Under the pieces are notes generated by a model. The model was not told where the DNA came from, did not search any database, and saw only the letters and a program-made list of their open reading frames with translations. From the NCBI GenBank assembly GCA_905178155.1, contig CAJINV010000001.1, positions 11,825,832 to 11,889,831 of the forward strand: a stretch of 64,000 nucleotides of DNA, written 5' to 3'. Source of the stretch: Amoebophrya sp. A120 (taxonomy: Eukaryota; Protista; Dinoflagellata). This document shows positions 1 through 46,465 of this stretch, one piece after another. Each line of letters starts with the position of its first letter. Within the stretch, counting starts at the first letter, position 1. The position numbers were made by a program, and so were the translations under genes.

Positions 1-673
1 ATAGTCACGATACCCTGTCTCTGCCCTATCGTATTCCCGCATGTATTATGGATTGCAAAAATGCCTGGGTCTGGAAATTTGTAATGCTAAAAGTGAATGA
101 TAGACACACTGCAATACGCAGCTATGCATGAGAAATTTTTTGGCTGCCATGTCTTACGTATTCCGCATGGCAAGCTGCGTTTTTGCATGACAGGTAGGAG
201 GGCCTTTTCGTCCCCATGCAACACAGATTCTCGAGTCATGCCAGACAAGCATGACAAACTTGCATCCTTCCAGACCCAGACATTTTTACATTTCATATGT
301 ATTCGAGCACTTCCGCTTTTTTTGTGTTCTCGAACCCCAGTGCTCGCATGGCTACCTTCAGCTCGTGGTAGTCAATTTTTCCCGTCTTCTCGCTGTCGAA
401 AAGGTCGAAGGCTTCTCTTATCTCCTGCTTCTGCTCGTCGGAAATTTCAGGTCTGGCCACACGCCTGAACAGTAGAAATTTGTTGCATTGATTTGAGTTG
501 AAACTCTTGATCTTAATCAGATTTTCTGTGGATTTCGAGAAAGGAGAAGGACGCCAGCTTGCTGCATACTAATAATCATTCTACCCGGTGCCTCCGGGTC
601 GTGACCTGAACCTGCTCGTGGTTGCGTTTCCAAATCGCAAAAGCGATGTCCCGCCTTCCATCCGTCGCGACAT
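1..673 (-). CDS. CEN3: Centrin (centrin-3/Cdc31-like EF-hand protein), runs off the window start
   Basis: Not in the ORF track. Exon 673-585 (MSRRMEGG...), GT-AG intron 584-465, exon 464-298, TIR intron, then exon 41-1. Spliced peptide [61 protein letters not shown] matches the centrin-3 first EF-hand region. Confidence 0.92.
47..297. mobile_element. TIR non-canonical intron (introner/MITE), family A
   Basis: TIR TATGGATTGCAAAAATGCCTGGGTCTGGAA...TTCCAGACCCAGACATTTTTACATTTCATA. 5-bp TSD TGTAT at 42-46 and 298-302. Removal restores centrin ...EVLEY-M-REYD. Confidence 0.95.
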
Positions 674-5931: not shown

Positions 5932-8165
5932 CTAGAGTTCGTTCTTCCCTAGCTTCTCCTCTTCCTCTGTTTCCGCGCTAACCCAATAGCGATTTTCGCA
6001 TATTATGTCTTCGATGAAGCCCATTCCTTTCAGCCGCAGCCTGTCCTTTCTCACATACTGAGCCGCGAAGGCTTCGAAGCTCATGCTCTCCCACGTGGGA
6101 AGCTTTAACGAAAAGCACTCGAACCCGTAGTGCGCCACGAAATGGAGTAAATCGACGTGGTCCGTCCCGGTATTTGCGAGCATCGCCGGCTTATCAAGTG
6201 CAAAAATGTCTGGGTCTGGAAGAGTGCATGTTTGTCATGCTTGTCTGGCATGACTCTCCAATCTGTCATGCACGTTACCCAAGAGCTCCATTTTTCTGTG
6301 ATGCAGAAACGCAGTTTGTCATGCAGAATAGGCAACACCTAGAAGCTCAGAAACTTGTCATGCTGAGCCAGCATTTGTGGCCTCATCATGAGACGCCACC
6401 CAGCATCACAAGTTTCCAGACCCAGACATTTTTACATTTGGTACGGCTGGTACTCGAAAACCAGGTAGTGGACCATCGTGTGCTGCAACAATCTCTCCGC
6501 CCCTTTGAGCACGTAGAGCTCCGCGCCTTCCGTGTCGATTTTCAGCAAATCAATTTTCTTCAACTCTGCGGGAAAGTGCCTCGCGTTGGTAGCTGCCGTT
6601 GCGTCTGAAAGTCCGAAAAGATCGTCCAGCGTGACCACGGCAACCTCCTCCTCTTCCATATCTGGCGGCCCATCGAGGTACCCCATCAAGGCTAGACTCG
6701 TGTAGTCGTAGCGGGACAGTACCTTCTGTGCCCTTGCCGCGGCACCAAGCGCTGCCCCGATGAGATGGAAGAAGCCCGGTTGCGGGGTTGCATTTTTTTC
6801 AGCTGCATGATCCGCTTTCGTGTCTCCTTTGTCATTGTCATTGTCTTTCCCCTCCAGTCGCTCCCGCTCCTCGAGAATATGCTGTTCATTCATGGCTTTG
6901 ACGTGTGCAATCTCATCAAGTGTGAGCACAGGCCGGCCTTGCAAGTGAGCCGCGAGTTGAGCGGTGGTTGTCACTACTCCGCTACTCGACGCTGCGTCGG
7001 TTTTGTTCACAAATTCTTTTTCCGGCAATAATTTCCCCGGAACGACCGGAACCGGGCCTTCCACGTTCTCTTTCCTCCAGTACGGAAAGTTTTTGCGCAT
7101 CAGATTTCTGTTTCGCTTTACCATCTCGAAGCCAACACCGATGCAACCAAGTTCGACGATGGCCTTGGCCCAGTCGCCTCCGTCAAAAACACCGACGTCA
7201 AAGACGACTTTTCTCCTGGTTGGCTTGGCGGCATCACTGTCAACAAACGCCGGCTCGGATATTCTGCGCAGCAAGTCCAGCGAGCCCTGCAATCCGAAGT
7301 TGCTGTGCACCATCCCGAGCATCGGGGAAATTCTTGTGTTCGGGATGTGTTCGATAAAAGTAGTGTTCTCACTCTCATGTAGCTCCGCCGCTGCATCTAC
7401 TTTCACCGAGCTACTTCTTCCGCCGTGATTCCAGCGGTTTTTCTTCACTTTCACGAAGTACGGGAACCGGGGCTTTGCGTCGACGGAGATCACGTTGTCC
7501 TCTACATCGTAAGTCCCTATCACTTGTTCCACCTGCCCAAAAAGTGGCCAGGACAGCAGGTCCGGCTGCCGGAGCGCGAGCGGATTCAGCTCCCGCGCGA
7601 AATCCTTCGCTAGGGTTTTAAACGACGCGGAGTGCTGGGGGTGGTGAAGAGAGAGATAGATCAGAAAGGACAGAAAGCCTTCCCGGCACTCCTTAAAATG
7701 CTCACGGAAGTAGGCGAAAAGACTTTGCGGCTTGTTTTGATCTTCTACTTGGGCAGCTCTCGTCCCGGCTTCGGCTTTTTCATCTTCTGGGTGACTTCCT
7801 CCGGCCTCGTAAGTAGGTGGGAGCTCTTGCGGATCGATGATCTCTCCGTCGATTGTAAGGACTTTGTTCGTGAGCTCGACAAAATCGGGACTCGCACCCA
7901 TTTCCGCCGGATAGGGGGCAGAGGCCTGCAGAACACGCTGAAGACTGGTCCACGGTTCGTCGGCGCAAGTCTTCGTTGGCGGGGGCGACATGTCCACTGC
8001 AAGCTCGGCGCTGGCATGGTCTCCGCCGAGGAGCACCAAGCACGACAAAAGCAACGACGCAGGGAGGTGGGACGTCATTTTGTCTTTTACGGCTCTTTTC
8101 CTCCGGCGCGGCCTATTATTTCTGGATGTCCTGAAGATCTTCTTCGTCAAGTTCAGCATTTTCAC
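5932..8165 (-). CDS. FkbM-family (Methyltransf_21) SAM-dependent methyltransferase, probably secreted or signal-anchored (start may be M of MTSHLP)
   Basis: VVFDVGVFDGG and IDLLKIDTEGAELYVLKGA motifs. ORFs 6432-8165 and 5932-6183 join in frame (FEYQP|AMLANT) once the TIR element is removed. Confidence 0.85.
6192..6443. mobile_element. TIR non-canonical intron, family A
   Basis: TIR TATCAAGTGCAAAAATGTCTGGGTCTGGAA...TTCCAGACCCAGACATTTTTACATTTGGTA. TSD CGGCT at 6187-6191 and 6444-6448. Confidence 0.95.
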
Positions 8166-9266: not shown

Positions 9267-12200
9267 TTAGGCCGTAACAGGGCGTTGCCACTGAGAAGCG
9301 TTACCGGACAGGTCGTCGTCGTCCTCGGGAATGTAAGAAGAAGTCCAAGAGTTGTCAATGGAGCGCAGCGACGGCTCCGAGAAGAGCCTGGGGGTCGCGT
9401 CGCTCCCGCGGGTAGCCCGTTGCGAACCGGCTTGCCAGGACACTTCGGAACTGTGGTACGACGTCAGGGGGTCCTCTCGGTGCCTGGTCGCGTCGGAGTT
9501 GGACGTGCGAAACGCGTAGTCGCTCCTGCTTGACAACTGGTCACTTCTGTTGTACATGTCGTATAACGCAGGAGGATTAGAACCACGCCGCGTCGCATTC
9601 CCAACCTCGTGGAGAAACGTCGGCCAGGCGAGCGCATCATCCGCCTGGCCCGCCGCGTGGTGCTCGTCCCTGACTAGCTGTACATGCGTTCCTGAGGGAG
9701 CGGGGCTAGCCATCCCGAGTCCTAGCACCCCGAGCGTCGTATCATCTACCGAAGAATGCGCGTCGTCGTGTCGCTCGAGGAAGTGGTGGTGCCCGATTGT
9801 GGCCCCCACGGAAGACGGGCAGCGGGAGAAAGGGCGGGCTACGGGGTAGCCTGCTGCGGTTTTGGCTTGCACGCTTTGCTGACCACCGGCAGGGTCGACG
9901 TTACAGATCATGCCATTCCGACCTTGCATCGACCCGCCCTCCAGCGCTTCGTCCTGCGCAGGTACCGGTCGATTTCCCGGAGAGTGGTCCGGTGACTCCC
10001 TACTCTCCGGCCGCAAGACGTATCGGGGTAAAAATCGCCTATCCTCGGGACGCAGATGCAGCAGGCCAGCATTGTCGCGAGCACCCGAATTCAAAACCGC
10101 AACGTTACTGCAGCGCGACGTGAGCTCGCTGCTGTCGCGGCTCCGCGAAGTTTCCGCAGACAGGCGCTCGCCTTCTTCGCCGGCCTCCGCCCCGCTTCCT
10201 CGACTCGTCTGCTCCGGCGCTGCTCTTGGCATGTTACTGGAGTCCACTTCGAGCACATCCACAGCTTGGTCTGGAGCGTACTTGTACCGCTCCACACCCT
10301 CCCCCCACACCATGGCGCGGATGCGGTGGAGTTCTGGTCGGTCGATGACTCGACTGCTTTCCTATGAGAGTGCACAACTCCCCCTCCCCCTCATTTGTAT
10401 AGCATGAACGGCAATACAAGCATCAGCAAGAATGCCGGTTTTGCATGACAAATCTACACTGGATTGTAGTGCTATTTGGGCTACGAGAGCTTGTCATGCA
10501 AACAGTGCCAAGAGGCAAAGGGTGTACTTGCCATTTTGCATGACAAATGAGTGGGAGGGGGAGTTGTGCACTGTCATATTTCCCCCGATGACGACCTTGC
10601 GTTGCTCACGGAGGCTTGTTCGTCCCAACCTTGATTCGCAGCGACGGAGCTGCTCGGGGAGGCATTCCGCCAAAATGCATCCAGGCACGCACGGGGACTT
10701 TGTCGCGGCGCTGCGCTGTGCGTGGAAAGTTCGCCAGTGTGCGGTTTCTCTACAACTACTCCCTCAATCGCTGAACGCCGCTCCGACGGGTCCACTTCCC
10801 CGGTGAGTACTATCGCGTTGATGGCGTGCATCAGCGCCTCCTCCGCAGCGCTGTCGCTCCGCAGCTTCCAGGACGCACGCGGCCCGGAACCCGCATTGCT
10901 GCAGGGACTTGGTCCGGAGTGGAGAGGCGGCTGCACCGGATCCATTGACAATTGCTGCACGGTGCTGACTGACGCAGTAGATGTTGGACGATCTGATGTG
11001 AAGTTACAGAAAGCGGTTCATGCTGACATGGATCAGAGAGGACAACATCTGGCAACAGAACTTTAAGGATCGGATACGCTAGTAAATGAATCGGGCAGAG
11101 ACTGATGAATGAAATGACCGCTACCATCAAATGCTGACACCTCACCCCAACATTTCGGCTCACGACATATTCTTAGTGATTACCTGAAAAAGCGGACACA
11201 GCCGTGTTATTTCCACCAGCACAAGTTTCCTGACCAGCCGTCTCCTCCGGTGCAACGGACCAACTGTGTGCGCTTCTGGTGGGGAGGCAGTTAAGGAGGG
11301 CCCGGATTACGAACACGTAGCAGCACTCTCTGCAGCCGAACCGCTGGCACTGGTTCCTTATCTCAGTCCCTGCTAACGACTCTAGCGCCAGTCCGTCGGG
11401 TGTGGGTTCCTGAAGGGCAGATCGACCCATCTGCGCCGCGTGATGATCCGTGAGTTCTTCAGGAGGATACAACCTTTTTCCTGCTCCCCTGTGTTCTTCA
11501 CAGGATTTCGCTTCTGACGCTGCGGCAATTCGGCTGTTGCCAATAACGGTTGCGCCGACCGAGCAAGACGGCTGTAGGTGCTCCGCAGGGACGTTGGTGT
11601 CCTCCTCCTCGACGTCGTCCCATGGCAGTTTATTTCTTCTAACTTCGCCTGCGAGAAATCCTAATCCCCCTGCGCGAACCGTCGCGGGTCGCCGTGCTCC
11701 GGCGATTGGCGCCGGGCCTTGCTTCGTCGACTTCGGCGAAGCGCAAGGGGACGGCGCGCAACTTGACGTTCCACCTTCAGATAGTTCTTGCTGGTGTTCC
11801 TGCTGCACTCCCCCGTCGTCAGAGGACCTAAGCGACAGCAGTGGTAGGTTGCTCAAAGACGGCCCGTGCGGCCAGTTGGCCACGCGGGAAGACGGGGTCG
11901 CGGGGGATGTTGACCCGCATGTCGTGGTGAGTTGACTATTACTGTGGGATGCAAACCGTCCCCGGTCAACCGGACTTTTTGGAGCTACACGGTGCCCTTG
12001 AATCCTCCGTCGCGGGGAGCGTAGACCGCCCCGCGCGGAAGAGGCGGCGGGAGTGTTCGTGTCACCGTCGCTTGTGTCCGAGTCCTCGCTGGACGGCGAC
12101 CGAAAGCGCCGGACAAAATCCACTTGCCCGTATCTCGTCAAAGCTGTTTGCGCCACCGCGGCCGAGAGTGCAAGTGGCGGAACGACTGAGGACGAAGAAG

Positions 12201-13865: not shown

Positions 13866-16800
13866 TCACAGTGAGAGATTTCTCTTGCTGCCACCCGTGA
13901 GCTTCTTGCCGGTCGCGTAGAGAAACTTATCCAGCGAGCTGCTGATCGTGAAGATTCCGCCGATAATGACACAGAGGCTGGTGAGGAAGTGCGAGAACGG
14001 GATGAATCCCAACCGTTTCTGCACGAGGAAGGGCGAGAAGTCGTAGACTAGAAACACTCCAGGCAGCCCGGCTAGCTGCTCCGTGTTCACCAGTACGTTG
14101 CGGCTGGCCTCCGTGGAGGAGTACTGGTGCGAGTACTTTTTTGACGTCTCTGGGTACCGATCCTCCATGAAAATCGTGGGAATCAATTTGTTGTTATCAG
14201 AAGGGAAAGACGCCGCAATGAATCGCCATATGCAAGGGAGTTCTCATCTGCATCAATTTGGGTCACATTAATAAAATATCCTTGTTTGCTACGAGGGATC
14301 ATGCGGGCGTTTTTCACTTCGATAGATGTAGTAGTGAAACATGAAAGCGCCGTGGTCCACAATCTTCGACGTACCTTGTTCGTTTGATGTTTGTAGTGGT
14401 TCTGGTTTTCGAGTTTTACAACTTTAGTAAACGAACAGCGCACTGAAAAGACAAAAAAGAAAGAAAGGGAAAACGAACTGAGTGGGAAAATAAGTGTCTT
14501 TTTCTTGGAGGGGTTCGAACTGACAGGAAAAGAAGAGTTTTTGTGGAGGGCGGGGGTGATCGAACTGGGCAACATACAGAGAAGAAGGAGGAGGGGGGGA
14601 ACGAACTGCACACCAGGGAGAAGGAAAAGGGGGCCTCCGCGGTGCGCGAACTGACTGCGCGCGGCACCGTGCCGCCTTGGGCAAGCACAATGGACGCGCA
14701 ACAAGGTGCACACAGACCCATGGCGACGAGAAAGAGGCGCGCCAGCAGCGCGCCGCCATTCGTTGTAGCGGCAAGAAGCAACAGAACGATGCGCGTAGTG
14801 GTTGCAAATCACGCAGGACTGGACAGGGAAACACGCGACCAACCGGAGAAAATCGAGCGCCCCACCGTGTCTGAAGACGGGCCGGCGGCTTCCCGGCGGG
14901 CCGTCGAGGCCTCCCCGGGGCGCCTGTGCGTAGCTGTATGGCCTGCCACATAGGCGGCCGCTCTCCCTTGGCCCTTTCCTTGGACCTTTCCTCCAGATTT
15001 TGGCAGATTTTCGGCAAATTTTGGGGAGCTTTCAAAAACGCAAGCGCCGTGGTCCACGATCTTCGACGTACCTTGTTCGTTTGATGTTTGTTTGTATTGA
15101 TAGACTTCTAAACTTCGTGCAGTAATCCAAATGACAGCCTTCACTTTCATTATTTTCGCGAGGTTCTTCATTGAGCACCTTGAACAAAAGACTAACACTG
15201 CCACTGGAAGAACATCCCCTGGCTGAACGACCCACTGGCGTACCTTCCGGCGTATCATACTGAAAAGCGCATCCCATAGTGCAACCATTTGCAATACATT
15301 TGCGTTTTTCATCTCGCTGGTCAGTGTGACGAAAATCAGCTATCTGTGCTGATGGCACGCTTTGCAAACGCAAAATAAGAACATGCCTACTCCCCAAAAT
15401 TATCTGGTCGCAAGTATGTGCGATGTGCTTTTCTCTACAGCATACAGTGGCGCATCCACGAGGCCATTGAAGCGCGGACCAAACTGCAAGCGATTGATGA
15501 TGTGCGACGTGTTATCCTGAGTAAAAACGTACCCACACCAGAGTCAGGTTGGGGATTTTGCAACACAAACCTAGGAGTTTTGTGAGTCACGCATGACGCG
15601 TTGCACTCTGCAGTGTAGTGCAGGTTAGCAAGTGCAGCCGCCTCACAGATTCATCTGCTCATCCTGTTCACAGCATCACAAATTCCAAAACACGATTGGA
15701 AATGGCTCCCATGGGGATGCGCATTACAAGTCTTCCTGTCTTTGCAAATCTGCATTACAACTCTGGTGTGGGTACGTTTTTACTCAGGATACGTGTTGAA
15801 GCCCTCGGAAACGTCTCGGATGTTGAACTCGTGGACGTGTCTGTATGAAGTGCAAATTTGTCTGGGTCTGGAAGACTGCATGTTTGTCATGCTTGTCTGG
15901 CACGGCTCTCAAATCTGTCATGCACGTTACCCAAGACCAAGAGCACAAGACAATTTCTCAGCCATTCAGAAACGCAGTTTGTCATGCAGAACAGGCAACA
16001 CCTAGAAGCTCAGAAACCTGTCATGCTGAGCCAGCACTTGTGGCCTCCTCATGGTACGCCACCCAGCATCACAAGTTTCCAGACCCAGACAACATTTTTG
16101 CATTTGATAGTCTGCCCTGGCGAACAATGGACTTCCCCAGCGCCACGTGGACATTCCCGGCGACCTTCGACACGAGCACGTCGCCGTCGACGACGCAGCC
16201 GACGATGTGCTTGCACTGTTCGGACTCCTTCAGGACTTTGTAGTAGCTGAGCCCCGCTTGCGTGTACGCCTCCTTCAACGATTTGCAGTCGTTGCAGCAC
16301 GAGCCCTCGGGCATGTTCGAGGCCGCTGCGTAGCACGACAGACAGGCTCCTTCTGGCGCCACCGGGTCCTCGCCAAACCGCCCGAACCGATCCACGGGGT
16401 ACTTCTGGAGCCCGCCCGAGTCGATGTTGATTTGGTTCTCGCCCGACGAATCCACCGTGTCCACGGAAACCTCGTCACATCGCAGGTCCGGAAAGGTGAT
16501 ATTCAGCCCGATGGGTAGCTTCTCGTCGGTCGTCGTGTCCACCACGATGTGGTCCGAAATTCTCGTTGACAGGTAAAATCTTAGCTCCCCCGCGATCAGG
16601 ATCAGCATAGAAATGTACGTGAGCAGTGATATCGTGCCCCCGCTTTTCGTCTTTATGTTGTAGTCGTCATGCACCTTTTTGCAGAAGTTTTTTCAAAAAC
16701 GCTATATCCTCGACATTTTAATCGCGTCAAAATTTCCATTTACGAAAAAAACAAAGCACCCAGGGTAGAGCTCGGCCGCAGTGGAGAGTACTTTTATGCG

Positions 16801-29500: not shown

Positions 29501-32500
29501 ATTCGACCGGGCGCCGGCGGTGCGGGATTGCTCGTTTTACTTGACACCGCTGAAGAACTCGGCGCCGCCTTTGCCAGCACCGGGCCGCGCGACTTTTGTT
29601 CAGCACCCGGCGGCCGCTTCGGTTGCAGAGACGACTTTTCATCCTCACTCGAACTCTTTGCAACTTTCGCAGCCTCTTCTTCACTCGAGCTGGCGCCTCC
29701 ACCGATGAGAGTGACAGCGGGCGCGGAGTCATCGACCGTGACGCGCTTGCCAGGAAAAGTACTTGCTTGCTTCGACGTAATTTCCTCACTTCTTGCATCA
29801 GCATGATCCGGTGACGACGGAACAGCAGCCGCCTGGGAGTCGTGGTCGTCCTGTTGCAAACTCGGGCTGGAAACGTCTTCCGAACGCTCCGGCCGAGCCG
29901 GCGCGCCCTCGGAGTCGCCTGCTGGGCCGATATCTGCCTCGGAGTCGGTGCCCGGCACCGAACCCGCGGACAACACCGAACCCCCACCGCCGCCCGAATG
30001 GTCCTCGTCACTGTGTATGTTTTTCGTCCCTGCTTCCGAATTCGTCTGCAGGATTCTTTTGGACTCGGTCAGACTTGCCGCAAGTGGCTCCCCTTCCGGA
30101 TTCGACGGCTCTACTGATGCGGACAGCTCAAACTGCTCGTCTGTTGCCTGCAGCAGTTCCTGTCCGCGCGTGGAGATCATGTTGCCACGGGCGAGCGCCG
30201 CATTTACGTTCGTCGCTTGTTGCGATTCTGGTTCCGCTGCCTGTTGTTCCTGCTCCACCTCGCTTTCCGGCGCCGAACCCTGGAAGGAAGCATCATCTCG
30301 ATTGCCTGAAGGAAATGCTGGTGCCCCTTCGTCCGACGATCCACCCGGAGGTAAAACGTCGAGATCCTCTGCCTCCTTCGGCTGCTCCTGCTCCTGATCC
30401 GTATCAGTTACACTCATGTCATATCAAATGTAAAAATGTCTGGGCCTGGAAGAGAGCAACTTGTGATGCTGAATTTGGATTCCAAAAAAATCTGTATTAC
30501 ATGAGCAGCAAAGGGAATGGAATTTTTGCTACGCGGAGAGGGCATTTGTCATGCGGAATAGGCACCGCGAAGCCCTCAAAAAAGCTGTGATGCTAGGGCA
30601 TGCATCACAGACATCATGGCCAATGCAAAACATGCATGACAAGTCTCAGAATCTTCCAGACCCAGACATTTTTACATTTGATATGTCACTGAAGGTGTCC
30701 CGGGGATTTCTCATCGAATTCGCTGGAACGGGGGCTAAGCCGACTTTCTTCTGTTCTTTTTGTCCGACCGCGAGAGCATTGACGTTCGCTTGCGACAGTA
30801 CAGGACCGCCGTTGTCATCTTCCATTCGCATCAGCTCTGGCACCGTACCCCCGTCACTGCTCGCTGGGAAACCGCTGCTCTGTACGCTCGCCTGCAGATT
30901 GTCACCTGCCGCAGCTGCTGCTCCGCTGCTCATCGGCACGTCAACATCCTCGTGCGCTTCGTCCGTCCCAAGCTGGCCACGGTTGAATACGGGCTCGCCA
31001 ACATCTTCTTGCGCTTGCACCTCTATAGCTGCATCGTGCTCCACAATTTCGTCTGAGTCTATCTCCTCCGCCTGCTCCCCGGCCGCGGTCTGGGCGGCGT
31101 CTGGTTGCCCTTGGTCAGCGCCGGGGTCTTCGTCATACTCTTGGAATTCCCCATGTTCGTCGTAGTACCCGGCGCCGCTGCCGTCGTGATAGTTCCCATC
31201 GTCGTCGTAGAAGCCTCCGTAATGGTCATACCCCTCTGCATCGAAACCGTGCTCGTCGTACTGCCGAACGTCTGGCTCTTTCGAAGCAGCTGGTGAGGAT
31301 CCCCCGAGATGATCGTCACTTGATGCCGCAGGTAGATTCTGATCTTCCGGTGAGCTTTGACTTGTTTTTACCGCTATTTCTGGATTAACTTCACCTGGTT
31401 CAGTTGTTACATTTTCCTCTTGAACTGCTTCCAGATCCCCCGCCGTGCTTCTCCGCTTTGTCATTGCGTCCGAGAACCGCTGCCCCAGCGCCATACCAGC
31501 TTCCGCCTCGTTGTCCGAGTAGGTGTCGCCGTGAAGGAGCTCTTTTTCCTCGTATTCCGCCTGGTGGTGGTGCTCATCCCCCTCGACAACAGGATTCAGA
31601 CCCTGTTCCGGCGCGAGCAGGGGGCCGCCCTCCGGCACGATTGACCTTTTGAAGGGACTATTGCCTCCTAAAAACTTGTCCGTTTGCAGCATGTTCAGGA
31701 AGCTCGGGCGCGCGGTGCCAGTGGTTGGAGGCGGCGTGAGACGAGTCGACGTCGATGGTGCTCTAGTACTGTCCGCAGACTGCTGTTCTTTAGCCGTGCT
31801 AAGTGTCAAATCACCCTCGTGCACCTGCTGCTGTACTACTTCACCCTCCTGCGTCGGCTCGTCGTAATACATGAGCAGAACTTCCTTCGCCGCAGGGTCG
31901 ACTACATCAAGACCGTCGTTGCTATTCGCTACGAAGTCGAGAAAGGAGCCTAAGTGTTCCTTCCCTTGCAGCCACGCGTTACCGTACTGTTGGAACAGAA
32001 CTTCGGCGGTCGCCGCGTCCTGCATTTTCTGTTTGATAGGCGAGTCTCCCAGCGAAGATCTATTTTGCCCGAGTTTTCTTGTTCCAAACGACGCTTCCTT
32101 GCCGGCCCGCCTCATCGGGCTATCCTCCTCCGCCACAACGCCCGCTTCATCCAGCGCCTGATCCCAATAGTTGTTGGTTAGACTGTTTAGAAACCGCATC
32201 TCATCTCTTTGCACCAAGGGGATCTTGTCGGGAGAATCAGGCGGCATGTCGTAGAACGGCAGTTCCACGGAGACAGCGGGAGTGGTTTCTTCGGCCTTTT
32301 TTCCAACATCTTCAACCTCAGTTGTGAAAGCCTCGCTAGACAATGTGGCCGGTCCTTCCGCTGCTCCCGCTTCTATCCCCTCTGCAATGAATTCCACCTT
32401 TTTCTTTTTTGTTTCGTCTCGCTTGACGCGGTCTCCTTCCACTGGCTCCTCTTGCTGCAAAATTTCCGCAACTTTCTTGCTCTCCCGGCGCAGGTCGAAA

Positions 32501-40200: not shown

Positions 40201-41222
40201 GTTGCGAGACCTGCGATCGGCTGGACGCAACGCTCATCGGCGGACTCGCCGCGGTTCCTTCGCCGAACATCTCGCCGATCAGCAGGGGCGGGGAATTTCC
40301 CCCCCGGCCGCTTGGATGCGCCGCCGAAGCCGTAGGACTGCTCACCGCGGCTTTTGGCTTCGGCGAGGTTTTTCCTTTTGGGCTGGTCGCTGCTGCTTTG
40401 GTGCCCGTGCGGGCACCGCTCTTCGCCGGGGCGGGTGCCGCTTTTTCCGGTGGCAAGAAGAAAAACACCCCCGGGACCGGGTGTGTGTGCTGGAACCCCT
40501 CCTCTGTTTGCGCAGTAGATGCGCTTCGCGGTCGGTTGGGTTTCACCTCGGCAGCAGGAGTTGTAGACAAGTCGACTCGCGGCGTCAGAGACGCGTCCGC
40601 AAATCGGTGCAGCGGCGAGGAATACCGGCGTGCACTGCGTATCCGCGCGGACCGTCGAGCCTATCGAAATGATACAACGCACTTACGTAATCGCGTTTAG
40701 GTCTCGAAAGTCATCAATGTGCAATTGAGTTTTTCACCGTTGACGCCGAGTGGGAAAAAATGCATGAAAAAATATGTAGTTCTTACCGCTCGTCTTCCCT
40801 CCGACTTCAGACGCTTTTGTCGAAGCATCTCACACCGAATGTCTAGTAAAGCGGGGTGAATGCAGCTGCTGAGGAACTTCAGAAACCGGTCACGATTACT
40901 GCAAGCCCACAGCACCGTGTCTTTCACCTGCAAGAACGTGCATAAACAGTAGGCCAGTGGCCTCTAGAGCAGCATTGATTTCGCACAGAAACAGATCCAA
41001 GGAGTGGGGAAAACAAAATTCCTACAAACGAAAACCAGTCAAACGCACGACTACCTCCGGCGGCCAGTCGACTCCACAGCCGAGAGTTCGAGAAAAGAAT
41101 AACCACCGATCGCGATGCTTCTCCACATCCGCGTAGATGTGCTGTGCGATAGACAAGTTCAAGTCTACAAACTCGTAGCGCTGCATCAAGCAGGCCGAGA
41201 CGTCCAATGCCATGCAATCCAT
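34258..41222 (-). CDS. Large hypothetical Pro/Ser/Ala-rich, largely disordered protein (~2,150 aa)
   Basis: ORFs 41022-41258, 40697-40933, 39263-40570, 34991-39256 and 34258-34851 link in frame through GT-AG introns (WPPE|VKDT, GRRA|ARRS, GGLE|RLSG, KKD|DVDR). The start is tentative. Confidence 0.6.
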
Positions 41223-42330
41223 CCTCGCAGACGTCCGGCTGCAGTCCCGGCGGTGCAACTCCTTCTGCTGAGTTCACGCCCCGGCGGCGTGCTGCAGACC
41301 GCTGCTACTCAATGGCGAGACCAAACGGGAGGAAAACTTTCCGCGGCGTGCCCCTATCATGTCAACGTTTTTATCTTCTATCCGGTGTGTCAGTCGGGTG
41401 CTACTATCTGTATTCAAGGCCGAGAAACTAGAGGACGCTCGTGTTTGTTGAGAAAGCGCATTCCTCGTATTTGTTGTTGATCGAAGACCTCGAAGTACTT
41501 GGCCAGCGGCCCGAAATACTGTTAGTACACGATCACGAAGTCGACAGCGATTTCGATTAGCGATCAAAACGAGCGAGTATTAAGTCCTGTTTCTGGATGC
41601 CACGAAAAACGATGCGAAGTATTTATCCGTCCTGCGATGGCTAGTGCAATGCGATCTTCAGGCGCCAAGCGTTCAGCTTGGTGCAGTAATCTTCGCGCAT
41701 GGAATTGCCTTGCGAGGCTAGCGCGCTCCACGCAAGGCCCCACGGCGAGGGGGGACGAATGTACCGAGCAGAATTTGTACACAAGATTCTAGAACTGGCA
41801 ATTCGCGCCGAAGCTTGGACAGTTTCTTGAAGATCGCGCACCGCCGGTGCGGCGGGCACCTTCCCCCTGCCTTCGCGCCGCCGCCCCTACCCGGCGTACA
41901 CCACGCGGGAGCCCGCGTTCTTAATCCGAATGCGCACCGCAGATGTCGGGGGGGGGGTCCTTGCGGGGCAGAGCGGCGGGGCCCCGCGAGGTGGGGCGGC
42001 GCCAAAAGTACGCAGGAGGGCGCGCGGCGGCAGGGGCTCAATTAGCCAGCGCAGTGGAGGATGCGCAATGCGCCTGCATCGTGTTGGTCACGCGCGTCCC
42101 GCACGCGAAAGGATGGCAATCCGGTCGAACGGATTGGAGCTCCGCGACCGGGCGCCTAGCGCGTTGCAGGGGCAGACAAGGTTGAAGAAAGGAGGAAGGA
42201 GGAACAGGGCGGAGCTCCGGGGTTCGGCAGAATCCGGATGGTAGAAAAGAAAACGCAAATCATTAAAGGATCGCCATTCGCGGAAAAAGAGGGCCAGAAG
42301 CGATCGCACTTCCTTGGACTAGGAGCATCC

Positions 42331-42381
42331 CCACTGACCTTCCATCAGGTCAGGGGTACAGACCTCCCACCAGGTCAGTGG
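42331..42381. repeat. Tandem pair of GACCT-N6-AGGTCAG palindromes
   Basis: CCACTGACCT TCCATC AGGTCAGGGG TACA GACCT CCCACC AGGTCAGTGG; the outer 10-mers are also perfect reverse complements. Confidence 0.8.
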
Positions 42382-42804
42382 TCAAAGCCCTAGGATCTTC
42401 GGACCTCGTTGGTGTGGGTTTCGGTGCCATTATGGATGGCGATGGCTCTGCGGAGCATCAAAGTCGTATAATATGACACACATGAGCGCTTGAACCGTTC
42501 CCGCATAATGTAACTCCATAAGTATGTTGATAAACATACATCTGCTTGCTCCAGTGATGCGGTTCGGGTTTTTATGGTTGTAGCGGTTCAGGTTTTTTTT
42601 TGGCTTTTTTTCGCCTTTTTCTTGTGCTTTTTGCGCCAGCTTTGCAAGGGCGCCAGCTTTTTGGCGCGGGGGCGTCGCCTGCCTTGGGCGCAGGCCAGAG
42701 CGAAACTTATCGCGCGGGCCGCCAACTGGCGGTCTTGCTCGCCAACCTCGCCACGGCTGCTGGCGGGAGGCAGTTTTTCGCCGTCGCCATCGCTCCAAAA
42801 CGAC

Positions 42805-43034
42805 TGCCGCCAAGCTGCCGCCAACGCTGCCGCCACCACGTTTGGCGGCACCTTACCACGACCTGACGCTGCGACTTTGCCACTGCCGCCATCGAAAAAA
42901 GATAAAAAGACTAATATTTAAATATTAGTCTTTTTATCTTTTTGGTATGGCGGCAGTGGCGAAAGTGCGGAGTTGGCTCGTGCTGAAGTGCCGCCAAACG
43001 GGGTGGCGGCAGCGATGGCGGCAGCATGGCGGCA
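42805..43034. repeat. Spacerless palindrome: 48-bp perfect AT-rich core with ~115-bp imperfect GC-rich arms
   Basis: Core 42896-42943 AAAAAGATAAAAAGACTAATATTT|AAATATTAGTCTTTTTATCTTTTT, axis 42919/42920. Arms share GCCACTGCCGCCA, TTTGGCGGCAC and GCTGCCGCCA repeats. Confidence 0.95.
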
Positions 43035-43249
43035 CCGACGGCAAACGGGAAACCGAGGCTGTGCCAACTCGTCCGCGCGTTGACCAGCGCCAGCCGAATA
43101 CGCTACGGAGCGCGCAGCGGCCCTCGCAATGCTCGCAGGTGGCGGGGCTGTCGGAAGCTGCTTGCCACGCTTGCCGGGCGGCAGCGAAGTGGCCTCCGCT
43201 AGGCCAATGCGCCCCGCGGCAGTTGGGGGCTGCTCGCCTTGCTGTGCTC

Positions 43250-43800
43250 GGCGACGTGTGCGCCTACGGTAGCCCAACTCGGCGCGAGGCGGGCGGGCGC
43301 GGCTTGGCGCGCTTGCCGCGCGACAACGTATTGGCTTACGGTAGCCCAATACGTCGCGGAACTGGCGGGCGCGGCTTGAAGCGCCCGCCGCGCGACGACG
43401 TATTGGCTTACGGTAACCCAATACGTCGCGGAGCTGGCGGGCGCGGCTTGACGCGCTTGCCTCGCGCCGACGTATTGGCGTACGGTGCCCCAGTACGTCG
43501 TAGGGCAGGCGGACGCGGCGCGGAGCGCTTGCCGCGCGACGACGTTTTGGCTTACGGTAGCCCAATACGTCGCGGAACTGGCGGGCGCGGCTTGGCGCGC
43601 TTGCCTCGCGCCGACGTATTGGCTTACGGCAACCCAATACGTCGCGGGAAAGGCGGACGCGGCGCGGAGCGCTTGCCGCGCGACGACGTGTTGGCTTACG
43701 GTAAGCCAATACGTCGCGGAACTGGCGGGCGCGGCAGGCCGCGCGGAAACGTATTGGCCCAAAGAAGCCGAGTTCGTTGCGGAGCTGGCGGACGCGGCGG
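43250..43800. repeat. 72-bp tandem array (~7.5 units), each unit carrying an imperfect ~31-bp palindrome
   Basis: TACGG cores at 43265, 43337, 43409, 43481, 43553, 43625 and 43697, an exact 72-bp period. Unit palindrome GACGTATTGGCTTAC-G-GTA[AG/GC/AC]CCAATACGTC. Confidence 0.95.
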
Positions 43801-43845
43801 GCCGCGCTCCCCTTCTGGCGGCCCCGCGGAGCGGAAGGAGGGCGG

Positions 43846-43959
43846 TGCCGCCAATCCCGCGGGGCCCCTGTACCAATGTGGCTACGCGCTTGCAGGGGGC
43901 GCACAAAGCGACACCAGTGCCGCCTTCATTGGTACAGGGGCCCCGCGGGATTGGCGGCA
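43846..43959. repeat. Perfect 33-bp inverted repeat with 48-bp spacer
   Basis: TGCCGCCAATCCCGCGGGGCCCCTGTACCAATG at 43846-43878 and its reverse complement at 43927-43959. Confidence 0.95.
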
Positions 43960-44504
43960 GGGCTGTGCCGCGTCTGCGGCTGGTTTCTCATTCAGAAGGG
44001 CCATCGGAGGCCGGCTTGCTTTTTGGCTTCGTTCCGGGCGCCTTCAGATCCCGCGCGAGGCTGCATGCTTCGCGCCGGATCTGAAGCCGCCGGGGCCGCC
44101 CTTTTGCGTCACAAATCGGCCCCCGAACAGCCCGGGAGCCGCAGGGGCCGTGCGGGAATACGCCGGAGGGCCCCTTGGGGGAAAGAGTGGCGCTCGCTTC
44201 CCCCGCAAGGCTCTTGGGGCACTGCGCGAGCCGCCCGGGGGCCCTTTAAGGGGTTCCGGTCTCGAATACCCAGCCCCGACGCATCCTGGAGCAACCCAGG
44301 AACCACCTTGGGGCACTCCGAGAATCGGCGGCCCGCCCGGAGGCGACGGCGGCCCTTCTTGCGCGGATCGGCGGCCCCTTTTCCGCGGAAAAATCGCGCG
44401 CGGGCGCGATTTTTTCGCGAAAAAAGTGAAAAAAAAACAGCCCCGAAACCACTACTGCCACAGCAGTAGCAGTAGCCCGAAGCATCACTGAAGCAAACAG
44501 CATA

Positions 44505-45275
44505 GTGCCACTTTTGGAAATTTTAAAATTTTTGAAATTCTGAAGAATTTTCTGAAAATGATGGAGCACCATCATAATCTGACAAGAAAGACAACCTATT
44601 TTCTATAAATAAAGAGCAAGCGCCTCCACAACAAGGCACTCCACTGCTGAACTCCGAAAAAACGCAAAAAGTCCATTTTTTCAAAAGTGCGCGACTTTTC
44701 ATATGTCCTTCAAAATTCGCAGAAATCACATGCTAGGTTAGAAATTAGCAAAGGAACTGCGAGAATTAGCCAACCACTTAAGTAAAAGAGTGCCAAGCTT
44801 GGAAATTTCGTCGATTTTGCATGACCGGAATTTTTCAGGATTTTTTGAGAATTTCTAAAACTAGTGAAAAATCTGGCACATGCCACATTTTGTGCATATG
44901 CTACCTTCTGTATAGGAAAAACATACAAACATCATTGCTATCACTCTTTGTAAATTGCATTTTGTTGCATAATTTTTAAGCAGGAACTTTTTGAAAATTT
45001 TTCAATTTCGAAAAAATATCCACTATCACTTAGTAGATGCACTAACTGAGTGGAAAGTATGCAAATGAAACAGAAAAAATACTATTTTTTCTTGTATAGA
45101 GGTCATTTAATCGATACATCTGCAATTCTGCGACATTTTGAAAATTTTGAATTTTTTTTTTACCCTTAAAAAATTAATGCTATGTGGCCATAGTGGTAGA
45201 AAAAAGCTTTGTAATGTGTTCGGAGGTGTATTTGTATCATATAGGAATACTTTTGTCCAATAGTATTTAAAATAT
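44505..45275. other. AT-rich block with many A/T tracts between very GC-rich flanks
   Basis: Abrupt composition switch; repeated AAATTTT / GAATTTTT / TTTTGAAAATTTT runs; no credible ORF. Confidence 0.7.
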
Positions 45276-46465
45276 GCCACTGCTGCTGCTAACAGAGCCT
45301 CCAATTTGGATTCCTGGGCCGTGAGCTTCTCTTTTTCCTCTACATTGCCCCCTCCCCCCCCCCCTCCTAGTACTGCCCACTCCCCCTGGAAGAGAGACGC
45401 CCTGTCATGCCCTGGAGGAGGCATGCCCCCCCTCCAGCCCGACCGGACGCCGCGCCCGTCGCAGTAGGGCCCCCCTTTGCCTCCTGTTCCATGCTGTACT
45501 GTGACCGGAGTTCCGCCCTCGCGGGTGCGTTTTTTATCGCGAGGTCACCCATCGGGGCGCACGTTATCAAGGGGATGCTTTGTCTTGCCGGGCATTCGTC
45601 GTGGACCCGCGCGGGCTGTGTAACAAATCGCATGCGCTTCGGCGTCTTTTTTCCGGAGCAGCATCCCCGTCCGCTGCGATTACGGGCCGCCGGGCCGCGC
45701 TCGCCTTGGCCCGTTCCGTTCTAAGCTTCTACGCTTTCCCGGGCTGGTGCAACGGCGCAAAGCATTGCGAAATGCCTTCCACCCGCCCGAGACTTCGCGC
45801 AAGGTCGCCGTCGGCAATTTTCCTAGAGCGACGCTGGTACGGCAAGCACCCAAGGCACCGGGCCGCGGAGGTGCGGGCAGAGAAGAACCGCACCAAAAAC
45901 GGCCCACGCAAGCCTCGCGACAGAAGCAGGCCGGGCCTGCCGGACGGAAGAGTGCAGCGCGGCGGCGGCCAACCCGGCCGCTGCAATAACATTCCTGCGG
46001 GCCGCACCGCTTCGCTTTTCCATCGGGGGTGGGTTGTTTTCCGCCCCACCCGCGCCCGCACCGATGCCAGTGGGCGTACGCAAGAGTGAAACGGCCCGGC
46101 AACGCGGGGGGGCCTATCGATGTTACACAGAATCTCCCCTGCCGGGAAAAGACGGGCGCGGGGGAAAGACGGTCCGGCCGCGTCAAGTTGCATGGGAGTG
46201 CCAGGGGGGTGCGCATCCTCTGGCCTTACGCACATGTGTTCGCAGAAAGGGAACCCATGCTCGAGGTTGCATGTCGCTGTTCTGTTCCAAAAGAAGAACG
46301 TTAATCATCAGAGACGTACGAAAAATGAAAAGCGTTGTGATCTTGTGCGTGCGACGGAACTCTTCAGATCAAAGCCACACACAAGGCTATCCTCTGGAGG
46401 AATGGTTTGATTTCCCTTTTTTTGAAGCGATCCTCGTCTCACTTTTTATTTACTCCGATCGTCAG

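What the first reader, a model, noticed from the sequence alone, without database searches (positions are those of the whole stretch)
42542..44500. Asymmetric inverted duplication centred on a perfect 48-bp AT-rich dyad, like a hairpin-end or resolvase junction
Seen: symmetry is perfect for 24 bp each side of TATTT|AAATA, decays over ~115 bp, then reappears at the distal ends. GTAGCGGTT (42580) mirrors AACCACTAC (44447-44455), and CTGCTTGCTCCAGTGATGCGGTTCGGG (42542-42568) mirrors CCCGAAGCATCACTGAAGCAAACAG (44476-44500). The left arm (~380 bp) is thus a short, diverged mirror of the right arm (~1,580 bp), which carries the 72-bp array. Known: spacerless AT-rich dyads with perfect cores are the substrates of telomere resolvases/protelomerases and occur at poxvirus concatemer junctions. 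Inference: either the two diverged ends of a linear hairpin-ended element fused head to head, or two related elements inserted back to back at a shared TTAA/TA. A perfect core amid diverged arms suggests active maintenance.
Basis: partly seen in the sequence, partly recalled or inferred. Interest (0 to 1): 0.75.

Follow-up and report, generated by a model that had tools for sequence, protein, structure and literature searches.

The report
Head-to-tail transposon with internal palindrome
The palindrome lies inside a 2-kb stretch with mirrored tips whose right tip is also joined to its left tip in DNA sequencing contigs, so it is likely a small jumping element of a marine parasite (likely Amoebophrya), repeated head to tail, rather than a hairpin chromosome end.

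Summary
In detail: a perfect 24+24-bp dyad at 42896-42943, arms 84-86% alike over 115 bp, and a real mirror at the tips. Between these the arms are no more alike than shuffles. New from DNA contigs of two runs of one sample: 42542-44500 has about 4-5 times the depth of its flanks; its right tip is joined to its left tip through one invariant joint (CAG-TT-CTG) at 3.0 and 2.7 times flank depth; and both tips also meet foreign flanks, pointing to a second locus. So the unit is one 1,959-bp non-coding element with terminal inverted repeats, in roughly five copies, likely partly in tandem. Depth does not drop at the dyad, no lone half-site was seen, one variant has two changes in the core, and no recombinase gene lies nearby, so a resolvase junction is not supported; 31-mer contigs cannot exclude fold-back joints. 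Best reading: a foldback-like non-autonomous transposon with a passive palindrome (0.5). Open rival: the joints are free circles (0.2). The scan had not noted this sequence; it noted another transposon with a central palindrome in this genome.

The parts
42542..44500 (.). Whole element, 1,959 bp, no recognised protein family; repeat period 1,961 bp when joined head to tail (42541-44500 plus one T)
   Evidence: Depth step and tip-to-tip joint in contigs of X1 and X2; flank contigs end at 42570 and start at 44471
42542..42620 (+). Left terminal inverted repeat (outer 19 bp tight, then a looser T-rich part); GTGATGC box ending 19 bp from the tip
   Evidence: a contig with a foreign flank joins exactly at 42542
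44419..44500 (-). Right terminal inverted repeat; same box ending 19 bp from the tip
   Evidence: a contig with a foreign flank leaves at 44496
42805..43034 (.). 230-bp spacerless imperfect palindrome, GC-rich arms
   Evidence: 84% complementary; folds as one hairpin, z = -11 for 42542-43300 against 20 shuffles
42896..42943 (.). Perfect 48-bp core, 12% GC
43252..43755 (+). 72-bp tandem array (about 6-7 good units, decayed units out to about 43140 and 43810; 144-bp higher order); each unit holds a 33-bp imperfect palindrome
43846..43959 (.). Perfect 33-bp inverted repeat with 48-bp loop
44034..44094 (.). 28-bp inverted repeat, 86%, 5-bp loop
44379..44424 (.). 21-bp inverted repeat, 90%, 4-bp loop
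42947..44491 (+). 514-codon open frame, likely not a gene
   Evidence: No Pfam family, no homologue at E<=0.001 among 7,976 candidates of 282-900 aa, differences in a diverged copy fall 8/9/8 on codon positions with 4 silent and 20 changed codons; but so long a frame is rare in shuffles (0 of 1000; 8 of 1000 with the array cut to one unit)
40661..46425 (.). Stretch without recognised genes between a minus-strand gene block (left) and a plus-strand block (right)

Best explanation
The dyad is an internal part of a 1,959-bp element with inverted tips whose right tip is joined to its left tip in DNA contigs; it is likely a non-autonomous, foldback-like DNA transposon in about five copies at two loci, likely with three head-to-tail joints in a chromosomal tandem, and its palindrome is likely a passive relic. 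Inferred history: a broken ancestral element folded back and was copied, giving a spacerless mirror image. The tips stayed alike because a transposase supplied in trans binds them; the centre stayed alike because an AT-rich axis extrudes easily and template switching between the arms corrects mismatches near it; the parts between decayed and the right arm gained a 72-bp array. An excised copy closed tip to tip with two filler bases, re-entered a resident copy by recombination or as a rolled concatemer, and unequal exchange multiplied that one joint. The assembly shows one unit; the tandem may lie here (collapsed) or at the second locus.
For: Shown: depth rises from 24 to about 54-116 (X1) and from 46 to about 150-209 (X2) inside 42542-44500; single joint 44500-T-42541 at depth 71.5 and 124, i.e. 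2.98 and 2.70 times the flanks; foreign flanks at 42542 (depth 0.95 and 1.0 times flank) and at 44496. The sum fits: one window flank + one foreign flank + three joints = five left tips, against 4.8 and 4.5 measured at 42574. The amplified unit ends at the tips of the inverted repeats to within 1 bp, which a random duplication would not do (inference). PMC2803484 (passages): Hermes/hobo circles have varied joints, while tandem copies are expected to give one invariant joint. PMC5932611 (passages): DNA transposons are mostly found as head-to-tail tandems; circularisation with rolling-circle copying is one proposed route. PMC3820800 (abstract): template switches extend identity between arms of imperfect inverted repeats. 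Both tips carry the GT[CG]ATGC box that is dense in this window's introner transposons (30 in 2,106 bases of 8 called elements against 26 in the other 61,894, 7 of those in one uncalled element).
Against: No consistent target-site duplication: at most CAT or CATA here, none visible in the 30 letters shown of the second pair of flanks, and the joint holds TT, not CAT, so simple double insertion does not fit. No transposase partner was found (no genome held); PMC7789003 (section 16) reports putative transposases in A25 but not in A120. The tips are imperfect (17 of 19) and start CTG, which I cannot assign to a superfamily (from recall). Contigs cannot tell a tandem from circles, drop rare joints, and their depth is only a rough copy measure; X1 and X2 are one sample and may be the window's own source. 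The window differs from the majority contig at 43156, 43918, 44459 (both runs) and 43711 (X2), which also fits a separate circle lineage. The fold-back origin, template switching and transposase are inferred, not shown.
Confidence: 0.5

Rival explanations
1. The three extra joints are free 1,961-bp circles: a small episome, about three per genome, kept by its own replication, with the AT-rich dyad and the neighbouring array of palindromic repeats as origin and two integrated copies in the chromosomes.
For: The joint lacks a target duplication and the joined copies differ from the assembled copy at 3-4 sites. An AT-rich dyad beside tandem palindromic repeats is the layout of viral origins such as EBV oriP and baculovirus hrs (recalled, not tested). 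A tip-to-tip joint with few filler bases is the form of hAT circles.
Against: One invariant joint at near whole-number depth in two runs; circles of hAT elements have mixed joints. No replication protein in the element. No match in viral contigs (3 patterns) or phage records.
Confidence: 0.2
2. The dyad is a live site for a tyrosine recombinase or telomere resolvase: it would resolve tandems into circles, invert arms, or open the circle into a hairpin-ended linear DNA.
For: Spacerless palindromes at dimer junctions are protelomerase substrates (PMC3558466, passages). The core is cleaner than the arms (P 0.01-0.09). The array alternates head-head (dyad) and tail-tail (tip joint) junctions, the geometry of a hairpin-DNA concatemer. 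Earlier notes report transposons with their own tyrosine recombinase in this genome (e1-10418792, not checked here).
Against: No depth drop at the dyad; the right arm next to it is 4.1 and 3.8 times a one-copy variant at the same place. One variant has two changes in the left half of the core (seen in X1 only). The arms are 378 and 1,581 bp and unrelated in the middle, unlike a replicative dimer. No such gene in 41 of 192 window ORFs over 100 aa or 50 of 57 frames around the element.
Confidence: 0.1
3. The unit is a host element of the divergent gene-block switch: a centromere, replication origin or two-way promoter whose repeats have expanded.
For: It sits in a 5.8-kb stretch between minus- and plus-strand gene blocks. 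The 33-bp palindrome of the array also appears with other flanks in contigs of X1, X2 and X4 (loose ends at 43396, 43427, 43436).
Against: A120 has 516 co-oriented blocks (PMC7789003 section 5), but only two left and two right flanks were seen at 80-85% likeness. Sharp ends at inverted tips and a second locus point to mobility. Gene-free stretches are where insertions survive.
Confidence: 0.12
4. Two related elements (one short, one long) inserted back to back at a shared TA or TTAA.
For: The arms are alike at both of their ends, as two family members of unequal length would be.
Against: No lone arm with a foreign flank at the axis; half-site absent from viral contigs and prokaryote genomes; the two ends of one arm are not inverted repeats of each other; both arms are amplified together.
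Confidence: 0.04
5. Assembly artefact (a fold-back chimera).
For: Palindromes are prone to chimeras; contigs break at the dyad.
Against: The arms differ at 18 of 115 positions; both are present in both runs; the break at 42914 is what a 48-bp palindrome forces at k = 31. Only the copy number may be mis-assembled.
Confidence: 0.02

Closest known systems
Foldback elements (FB, Tetris, Galileo; PMC4079207, passages)
   Same: Non-coding, mirrored arms, internal tandem repeats, few copies, no transposase of its own.
   Different: Repeats in one arm only; arms alike only at tips and centre; no middle domain; no 8-10-bp target duplication.
Head-to-tail tandems of DNA transposons (P, hobo, Bari1; PMC5932611, passages)
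   Same: Whole elements joined right tip to left tip with one amplified joint.
   Different: P and hobo joints keep the 8-bp target site; this joint has two bases that match neither flank pair.
Hermes and hobo episomes (PMC2803484, passages)
   Same: Tip-to-tip joint with few filler bases.
   Different: Those joints are varied, with no dominant form; here one form stands at about three times single-copy depth (contigs would hide rare forms).
Amoebophrya A120 introners (PMC7789003, sections 5, 7, 16, 20 and passages)
   Same: Same window; non-autonomous, inverted ends; shared GT[CG]ATGC box read inward from the tip.
   Different: No TAT...ATA ends, no 5-bp repeat, 2 kb instead of about 0.2-0.3 kb, between genes and not in an exon.
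Protelomerase / telomere resolvase target sites (TelA, TelK, ResT; PMC3558466, passages)
   Same: Spacerless palindrome of about 50 bp.
   Different: No enzyme nearby, no depth drop, unequal arms, host genes on both sides.

Membership tests
Telomere resolvase / protelomerase junction | Spacerless palindrome at the junction | tested here: met
   24+24 bp perfect
Telomere resolvase / protelomerase junction | Most molecules end in hairpins at the axis (depth drop) | tested here: not met
   Contig over the left half of the dyad 2.97 times flank depth, neighbours 2.25 and 2.61 (X1); bin 42878-42968 at 195 between 252 and 173 (X2); contig means only
Telomere resolvase / protelomerase junction | Left-left or right-right joints from replicated hairpins | not testable with these tools
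   A fold-back adds 0 new 31-mers; at least 50 nt are needed; no raw DNA reads were offered
Telomere resolvase / protelomerase junction | Cognate resolvase gene | tested here: inconclusive
   None in 41 + 50 frames scanned; the genome is not held
Telomere resolvase / protelomerase junction | Same replicon on both sides of the axis | tested here: not met
   Arms 378 and 1,581 bp, middles unrelated
Poxvirus-type concatemer junction | Viral genes flank the junction | tested here: not met
   Named neighbours are cellular (pyruvate kinase, ERGIC, TatD, FkbM); 0 matches in viral contigs
Non-autonomous TIR DNA transposon | Terminal inverted repeats that bound the unit | tested here: met
   17 of 19 at the tips; depth step and foreign flanks at the tips
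Non-autonomous TIR DNA transposon | Copies at more than one locus | tested here: met
   Second left flank at 42542 and second right flank at 44496 in both runs; that they belong to one locus is inferred
Non-autonomous TIR DNA transposon | Target-site duplication of fixed length | tested here: inconclusive
   CAT or CATA here; none in the 30 letters shown of the other flanks
Non-autonomous TIR DNA transposon | Autonomous partner with the same tips | not testable with these tools
   No genome held
Foldback (Mutator- or P-type) | Long modular arms alike along their length, with tandem repeats | tested here: not met
   Alike only at tips and centre; array in one arm
Foldback (Mutator- or P-type) | 7-10-bp target duplication | tested here: not met
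   Longest 4 bp over the boundary shifts tried
Amoebophrya introner | TAT...ATA ends, 5-bp direct repeat, inside a gene | tested here: not met
Helitron (features recalled) | 5' TC, 3' CTRR, insertion between A and T | tested here: not met
   A|TC fits the window's left end only; the second left flank ends GA and the joint ends CAG
hAT-type excision circle | Extrachromosomal circle with mixed joints | tested here: inconclusive
   One joint seen; contigs drop rare forms and cannot show circularity

The most novel reading that the evidence does not exclude
A protein-free 1,961-bp DNA circle that replicates in a parasitic dinoflagellate at about three copies per genome and also sits in its chromosomes: closed at its transposon-like tips, fired from an AT-rich dyad beside an array of palindromic binding sites, and moved or resolved by a transposon-borne tyrosine recombinase. 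It would be a natural nuclear mini-plasmid and a ready origin sequence for a lineage whose origins are not mapped.
Probability: 0.15. Interest if true: 0.75.

Novelty: new variant of a known kind. Interest (0 to 1): 0.36.

Why it matters
On the best reading it is a modest find: an undescribed 2-kb element that shows a transposon tandem at an early stage and a likely link, through a shared end box, to the unexplained introner transposons of this parasite. If the joints are circles, it gives a candidate replication origin and a backbone for a vector in a group with few genetic tools (from my own knowledge), and one long-read alignment decides it.

Tried and rejected
Whole-genome search: no genome held. 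Half-site, repeat palindrome and tip patterns in viral contigs: 0, 0, 0; half-site in prokaryote genomes: 0; element against phage records: no match. A loosened core pattern in metagenome contigs gave 3 loci that share only 25-30 AT-rich bases and lack the GC-rich arms: chance. Rfam and tRNA scans: 0. The 514-aa frame as a gene: no family, no homologue, no codon bias; only lengths 282-900 aa were searched, and the Atlas look-up gave no answer. RNA: no RNA holder listed; X5 and X8 laid 0 records and were not shown to hold this organism; X4 covers 9 of 30 bins and almost none of the element, but its library type is not on record, so none of this is evidence on expression or on circles. X3 (estuary metagenome, share 0.05) has one 151-base exact piece at 44094-44244 at depth 2: too little to use. 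A larger transposon centred on the dyad: no inverted pair centred on 42919.5 beyond 115 bp at E<=5 in the window self-comparison. Helitron and introner readings fail on their ends. Earlier notes by sequence and place: nothing on this element. Papers: searches listed no description of this element, and the passages of PMC7789003 for palindrom, tandem, circular and episom do not mention it; supplements were not read and may list it as an unclassified repeat.

Full report
Setting. The window is eukaryotic: it holds pieces of pyruvate kinase, ERGIC, TatD, an FkbM methyltransferase and a tRNA-ligase anticodon domain (41 of the 192 ORFs scanned) and at least 8 small TAT...ATA elements with 5-bp repeats, the introners published for Amoebophrya sp. 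A120 (PMC7789003). Earlier notes on this genome name the same organism. I treat A120 as likely, not shown. Long ORFs and named genes run on the minus strand left of about 40,660 and on the plus strand right of about 46,430, so the finding sits in a divergent switch between gene blocks. No whole genome is held.

The observation. The dyad is perfect for 24 bp each side of 42919|42920; the next best in the window is 8+8. The arms stay 84% complementary for 115 bp. The tips mirror each other at 17 of 19 bases, with a looser match over about 80 bp (E 6e-5; 0 of 500 shuffles). In between, the left arm matches the right arm no better than shuffles (114 and 79 of 500). The clean core has P 0.010 if the 18 mismatches are independent and 0.03-0.09 if they are 10-14 events. 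The right arm also holds a 72-bp array with a 33-bp palindrome per unit and three more hairpins.

What sequencing contigs add. Two runs of one sample hold about 90% of the words of 42300-45400; they may be the window's own source, so they test the assembly and are not an independent population. In X1 the flank contigs (11.9 and 4.3 kb, no differences) have depth 24, and contigs inside 42542-44500 have 54-97; in X2 the flanks have 46 and the inside 150-209, with two array pieces at 90-94. Both runs list one joint from 44500 back to 42541 with one extra T, so the right tip meets the left tip as CAG-TT-CTG, at 2.98 and 2.70 times flank depth. Both runs also show a contig with a foreign flank joining at 42542 (0.95 and 1.0 times flank depth, two differences) and one leaving at 44496. 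One window flank, one foreign flank and three joints make five left tips; summed depth at 42574 is 4.8 and 4.5 times the flank. A one-copy contig differs at 32 of 212 bases over 43005-43216, and the main contig there is 4.1 and 3.8 times as deep. Contig depth is a rough measure, and the tables were cut: 16 differences, 4 loose ends and 43 pieces unseen, 5 differences and 29 pieces. The window differs from the majority contig at 43156, 43918 and 44459 in both runs and at 43711 in X2. If the diverged middle belongs to the second-locus copy (inferred, not shown), that copy is identical over 42579-42834 and 43930-44496 and about 85% alike between, which would mean recent exchange among copies.

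There is no depth drop at the axis: the main contig over the left half of the dyad is 2.97 times flank depth, its neighbours 2.25 and 2.61 (X1). No loose end shows a lone half-site with a foreign flank (16 of 20 rows, 5 of 5). One X1 contig has 11 differences in the left arm, two of them 7 and 9 bp from the axis, while matching the window right of the axis; five of the 11 match the window's right arm; X2 did not list this contig. No recombinase, resolvase or transposase family appears in 50 of the 57 frames of 70 aa or more around the element. What cannot be tested: a fold-back joint adds no new 31-mer, since 50 nt are needed to see an asymmetric base on both sides, and this also explains the contig break at 42914.

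The long frame. 42947-44491 is open for 514 codons, and the left arm has a mirrored ATG with a 62-codon frame. Such a frame is rare in shuffles (0 of 1000; 8 of 1000 with the array cut to one unit). But 25 of the 32 differences of the diverged contig (those listed, without the shared allele at 43156) fall 8/9/8 on codon positions, with 4 silent and 20 changed codons; that contig family also shows a 104-base skip with 27 other letters and a 2-base loss; and there is no homologue. I read it as non-coding.

A link to the introners. In this window GT[CG]ATGC occurs 30 times in 2,106 bases of 8 called introners and 26 times in the other 61,894 bases, 7 of them in one uncalled element at 6192-6443. 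In introners it ends 41, 44 or 48-51 bases from a tip. Both tips of this element carry it, read inward, ending 19 bases from the tip. At the outside rate of about 2e-4 per base and strand, a hit in the first 25 bases has a chance under 1%; the two tips count as one event, the base before the box is A here and mostly T in introners, and the phase match (19, 40, 50) is loose. It is a lead that the same protein grips both, not proof.

How it most likely works. Shown: one unit bounded by inverted tips, amplified as a whole, joined tip to tip, and bordered by two pairs of flanks. Inferred: it is a non-autonomous DNA transposon of foldback-like build. A fold-back copy of a broken ancestor explains a spacerless axis and likeness at both ends of each arm; transposase binding would keep the tips, and template switching, which extends identity between arms of imperfect inverted repeats (PMC3820800, abstract), would keep the centre. 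The joint lacks a target duplication, so it more likely began as a closed excision product than as a double insertion (PMC5932611, passages). One invariant joint at near whole-number depth favours a chromosomal tandem over free circles, whose joints are mixed for Hermes and hobo (PMC2803484, passages). If the window comes from an assembly built like the published A120 one, short-read scaffolds were kept (PMC7789003, assembly passage) and a tandem could collapse; the tandem could equally lie at the second locus.

Rivals. Free circles with their own origin (0.2) fit the missing target duplication and the majority alleles that differ from the assembled copy. A live recombinase or resolvase site (0.1) keeps some weight because fold-back joints are invisible here and earlier, unchecked notes report recombinase-bearing transposons in this genome. 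A host centromere, origin or promoter (0.12) fits the position, but A120 has 516 gene blocks (PMC7789003 section 5) and only two pairs of flanks were seen. Two back-to-back elements (0.04) and an artefact (0.02) are unlikely.

Comparison and novelty. It works most like foldback elements and head-to-tail transposon tandems but fails membership in foldbacks (no 7-10-bp duplication, arms not alike throughout), introners and Helitrons, and fails the tested features of a resolvase junction except the palindrome. Seven paper searches listed no account of it. Seen of each paper: PMC7789003 abstract, sections 5, 7, 16, 20 and passages; PMC2803484, PMC5932611, PMC4079207, PMC3558466, PMC12130899 passages; PMC3820800 abstract; no supplements. 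EBV oriP, baculovirus hrs, Helitron ends and superfamily tip rules are recalled. Verdict: real, a new variant of a known kind, interest 0.36, with a 0.15 chance of a self-replicating mini-circle worth 0.75.

Noticed in passing
window 44501-45279: AT-rich block (33% GC) right against the element's right tip, with TGCCACT at 44506-44512 and 45275-45281; possibly another insertion. A short piece from 45176 also occurs with another flank in X1.
   Followed up: partly
window 45280-45305: By eye, the foreign flank that follows the right tip at the second locus resembles this stretch (low complexity, not scored); the AT-rich block may have split a once longer unit.
   Followed up: no
window 43396-43436: The 33-bp palindrome of the 72-bp unit occurs with unrelated flanks in contigs of X1, X2 and X4, so it is likely dispersed beyond this element.
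   Followed up: no
window 43396-43716: Each repeat palindrome reads like a tiny introner (CGACG, TAT...ATA, CGTCG) and trips an introner scan; probably a by-product of the symmetry.
   Followed up: partly
window 42522-42539: A 7-bp hairpin with a 4-base loop lies 2 bp outside the left tip.
   Followed up: no
window 47-297, 6192-6443, 10363-10578, 15513-15791, 15844-16109, 30422-30683, 55871-56132, 63339-63643, 63693-63957: Introner elements, six of them one family, rich in GT[CG]ATGC boxes.
   Followed up: partly
window 54977-55743: About 770 bp of 13-16-bp tandem repeats between pieces of the pyruvate kinase gene.
   Followed up: no
window 14337-14394 / 15034-15091 and 59563-59617 / 60668-60722: Two pairs of direct repeats, 58 bp at 93% and 55 bp at 91%, 0.7 and 1.1 kb apart.
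   Followed up: no
window 44379-44424 and 42660-42668: T-rich CGCG and GGCGC motifs that resemble E2F/SBF-type sites (recalled, not tested).
   Followed up: no
window 42191-42225: A short GC-rich piece left of the element also occurs with another flank in X1.
   Followed up: no
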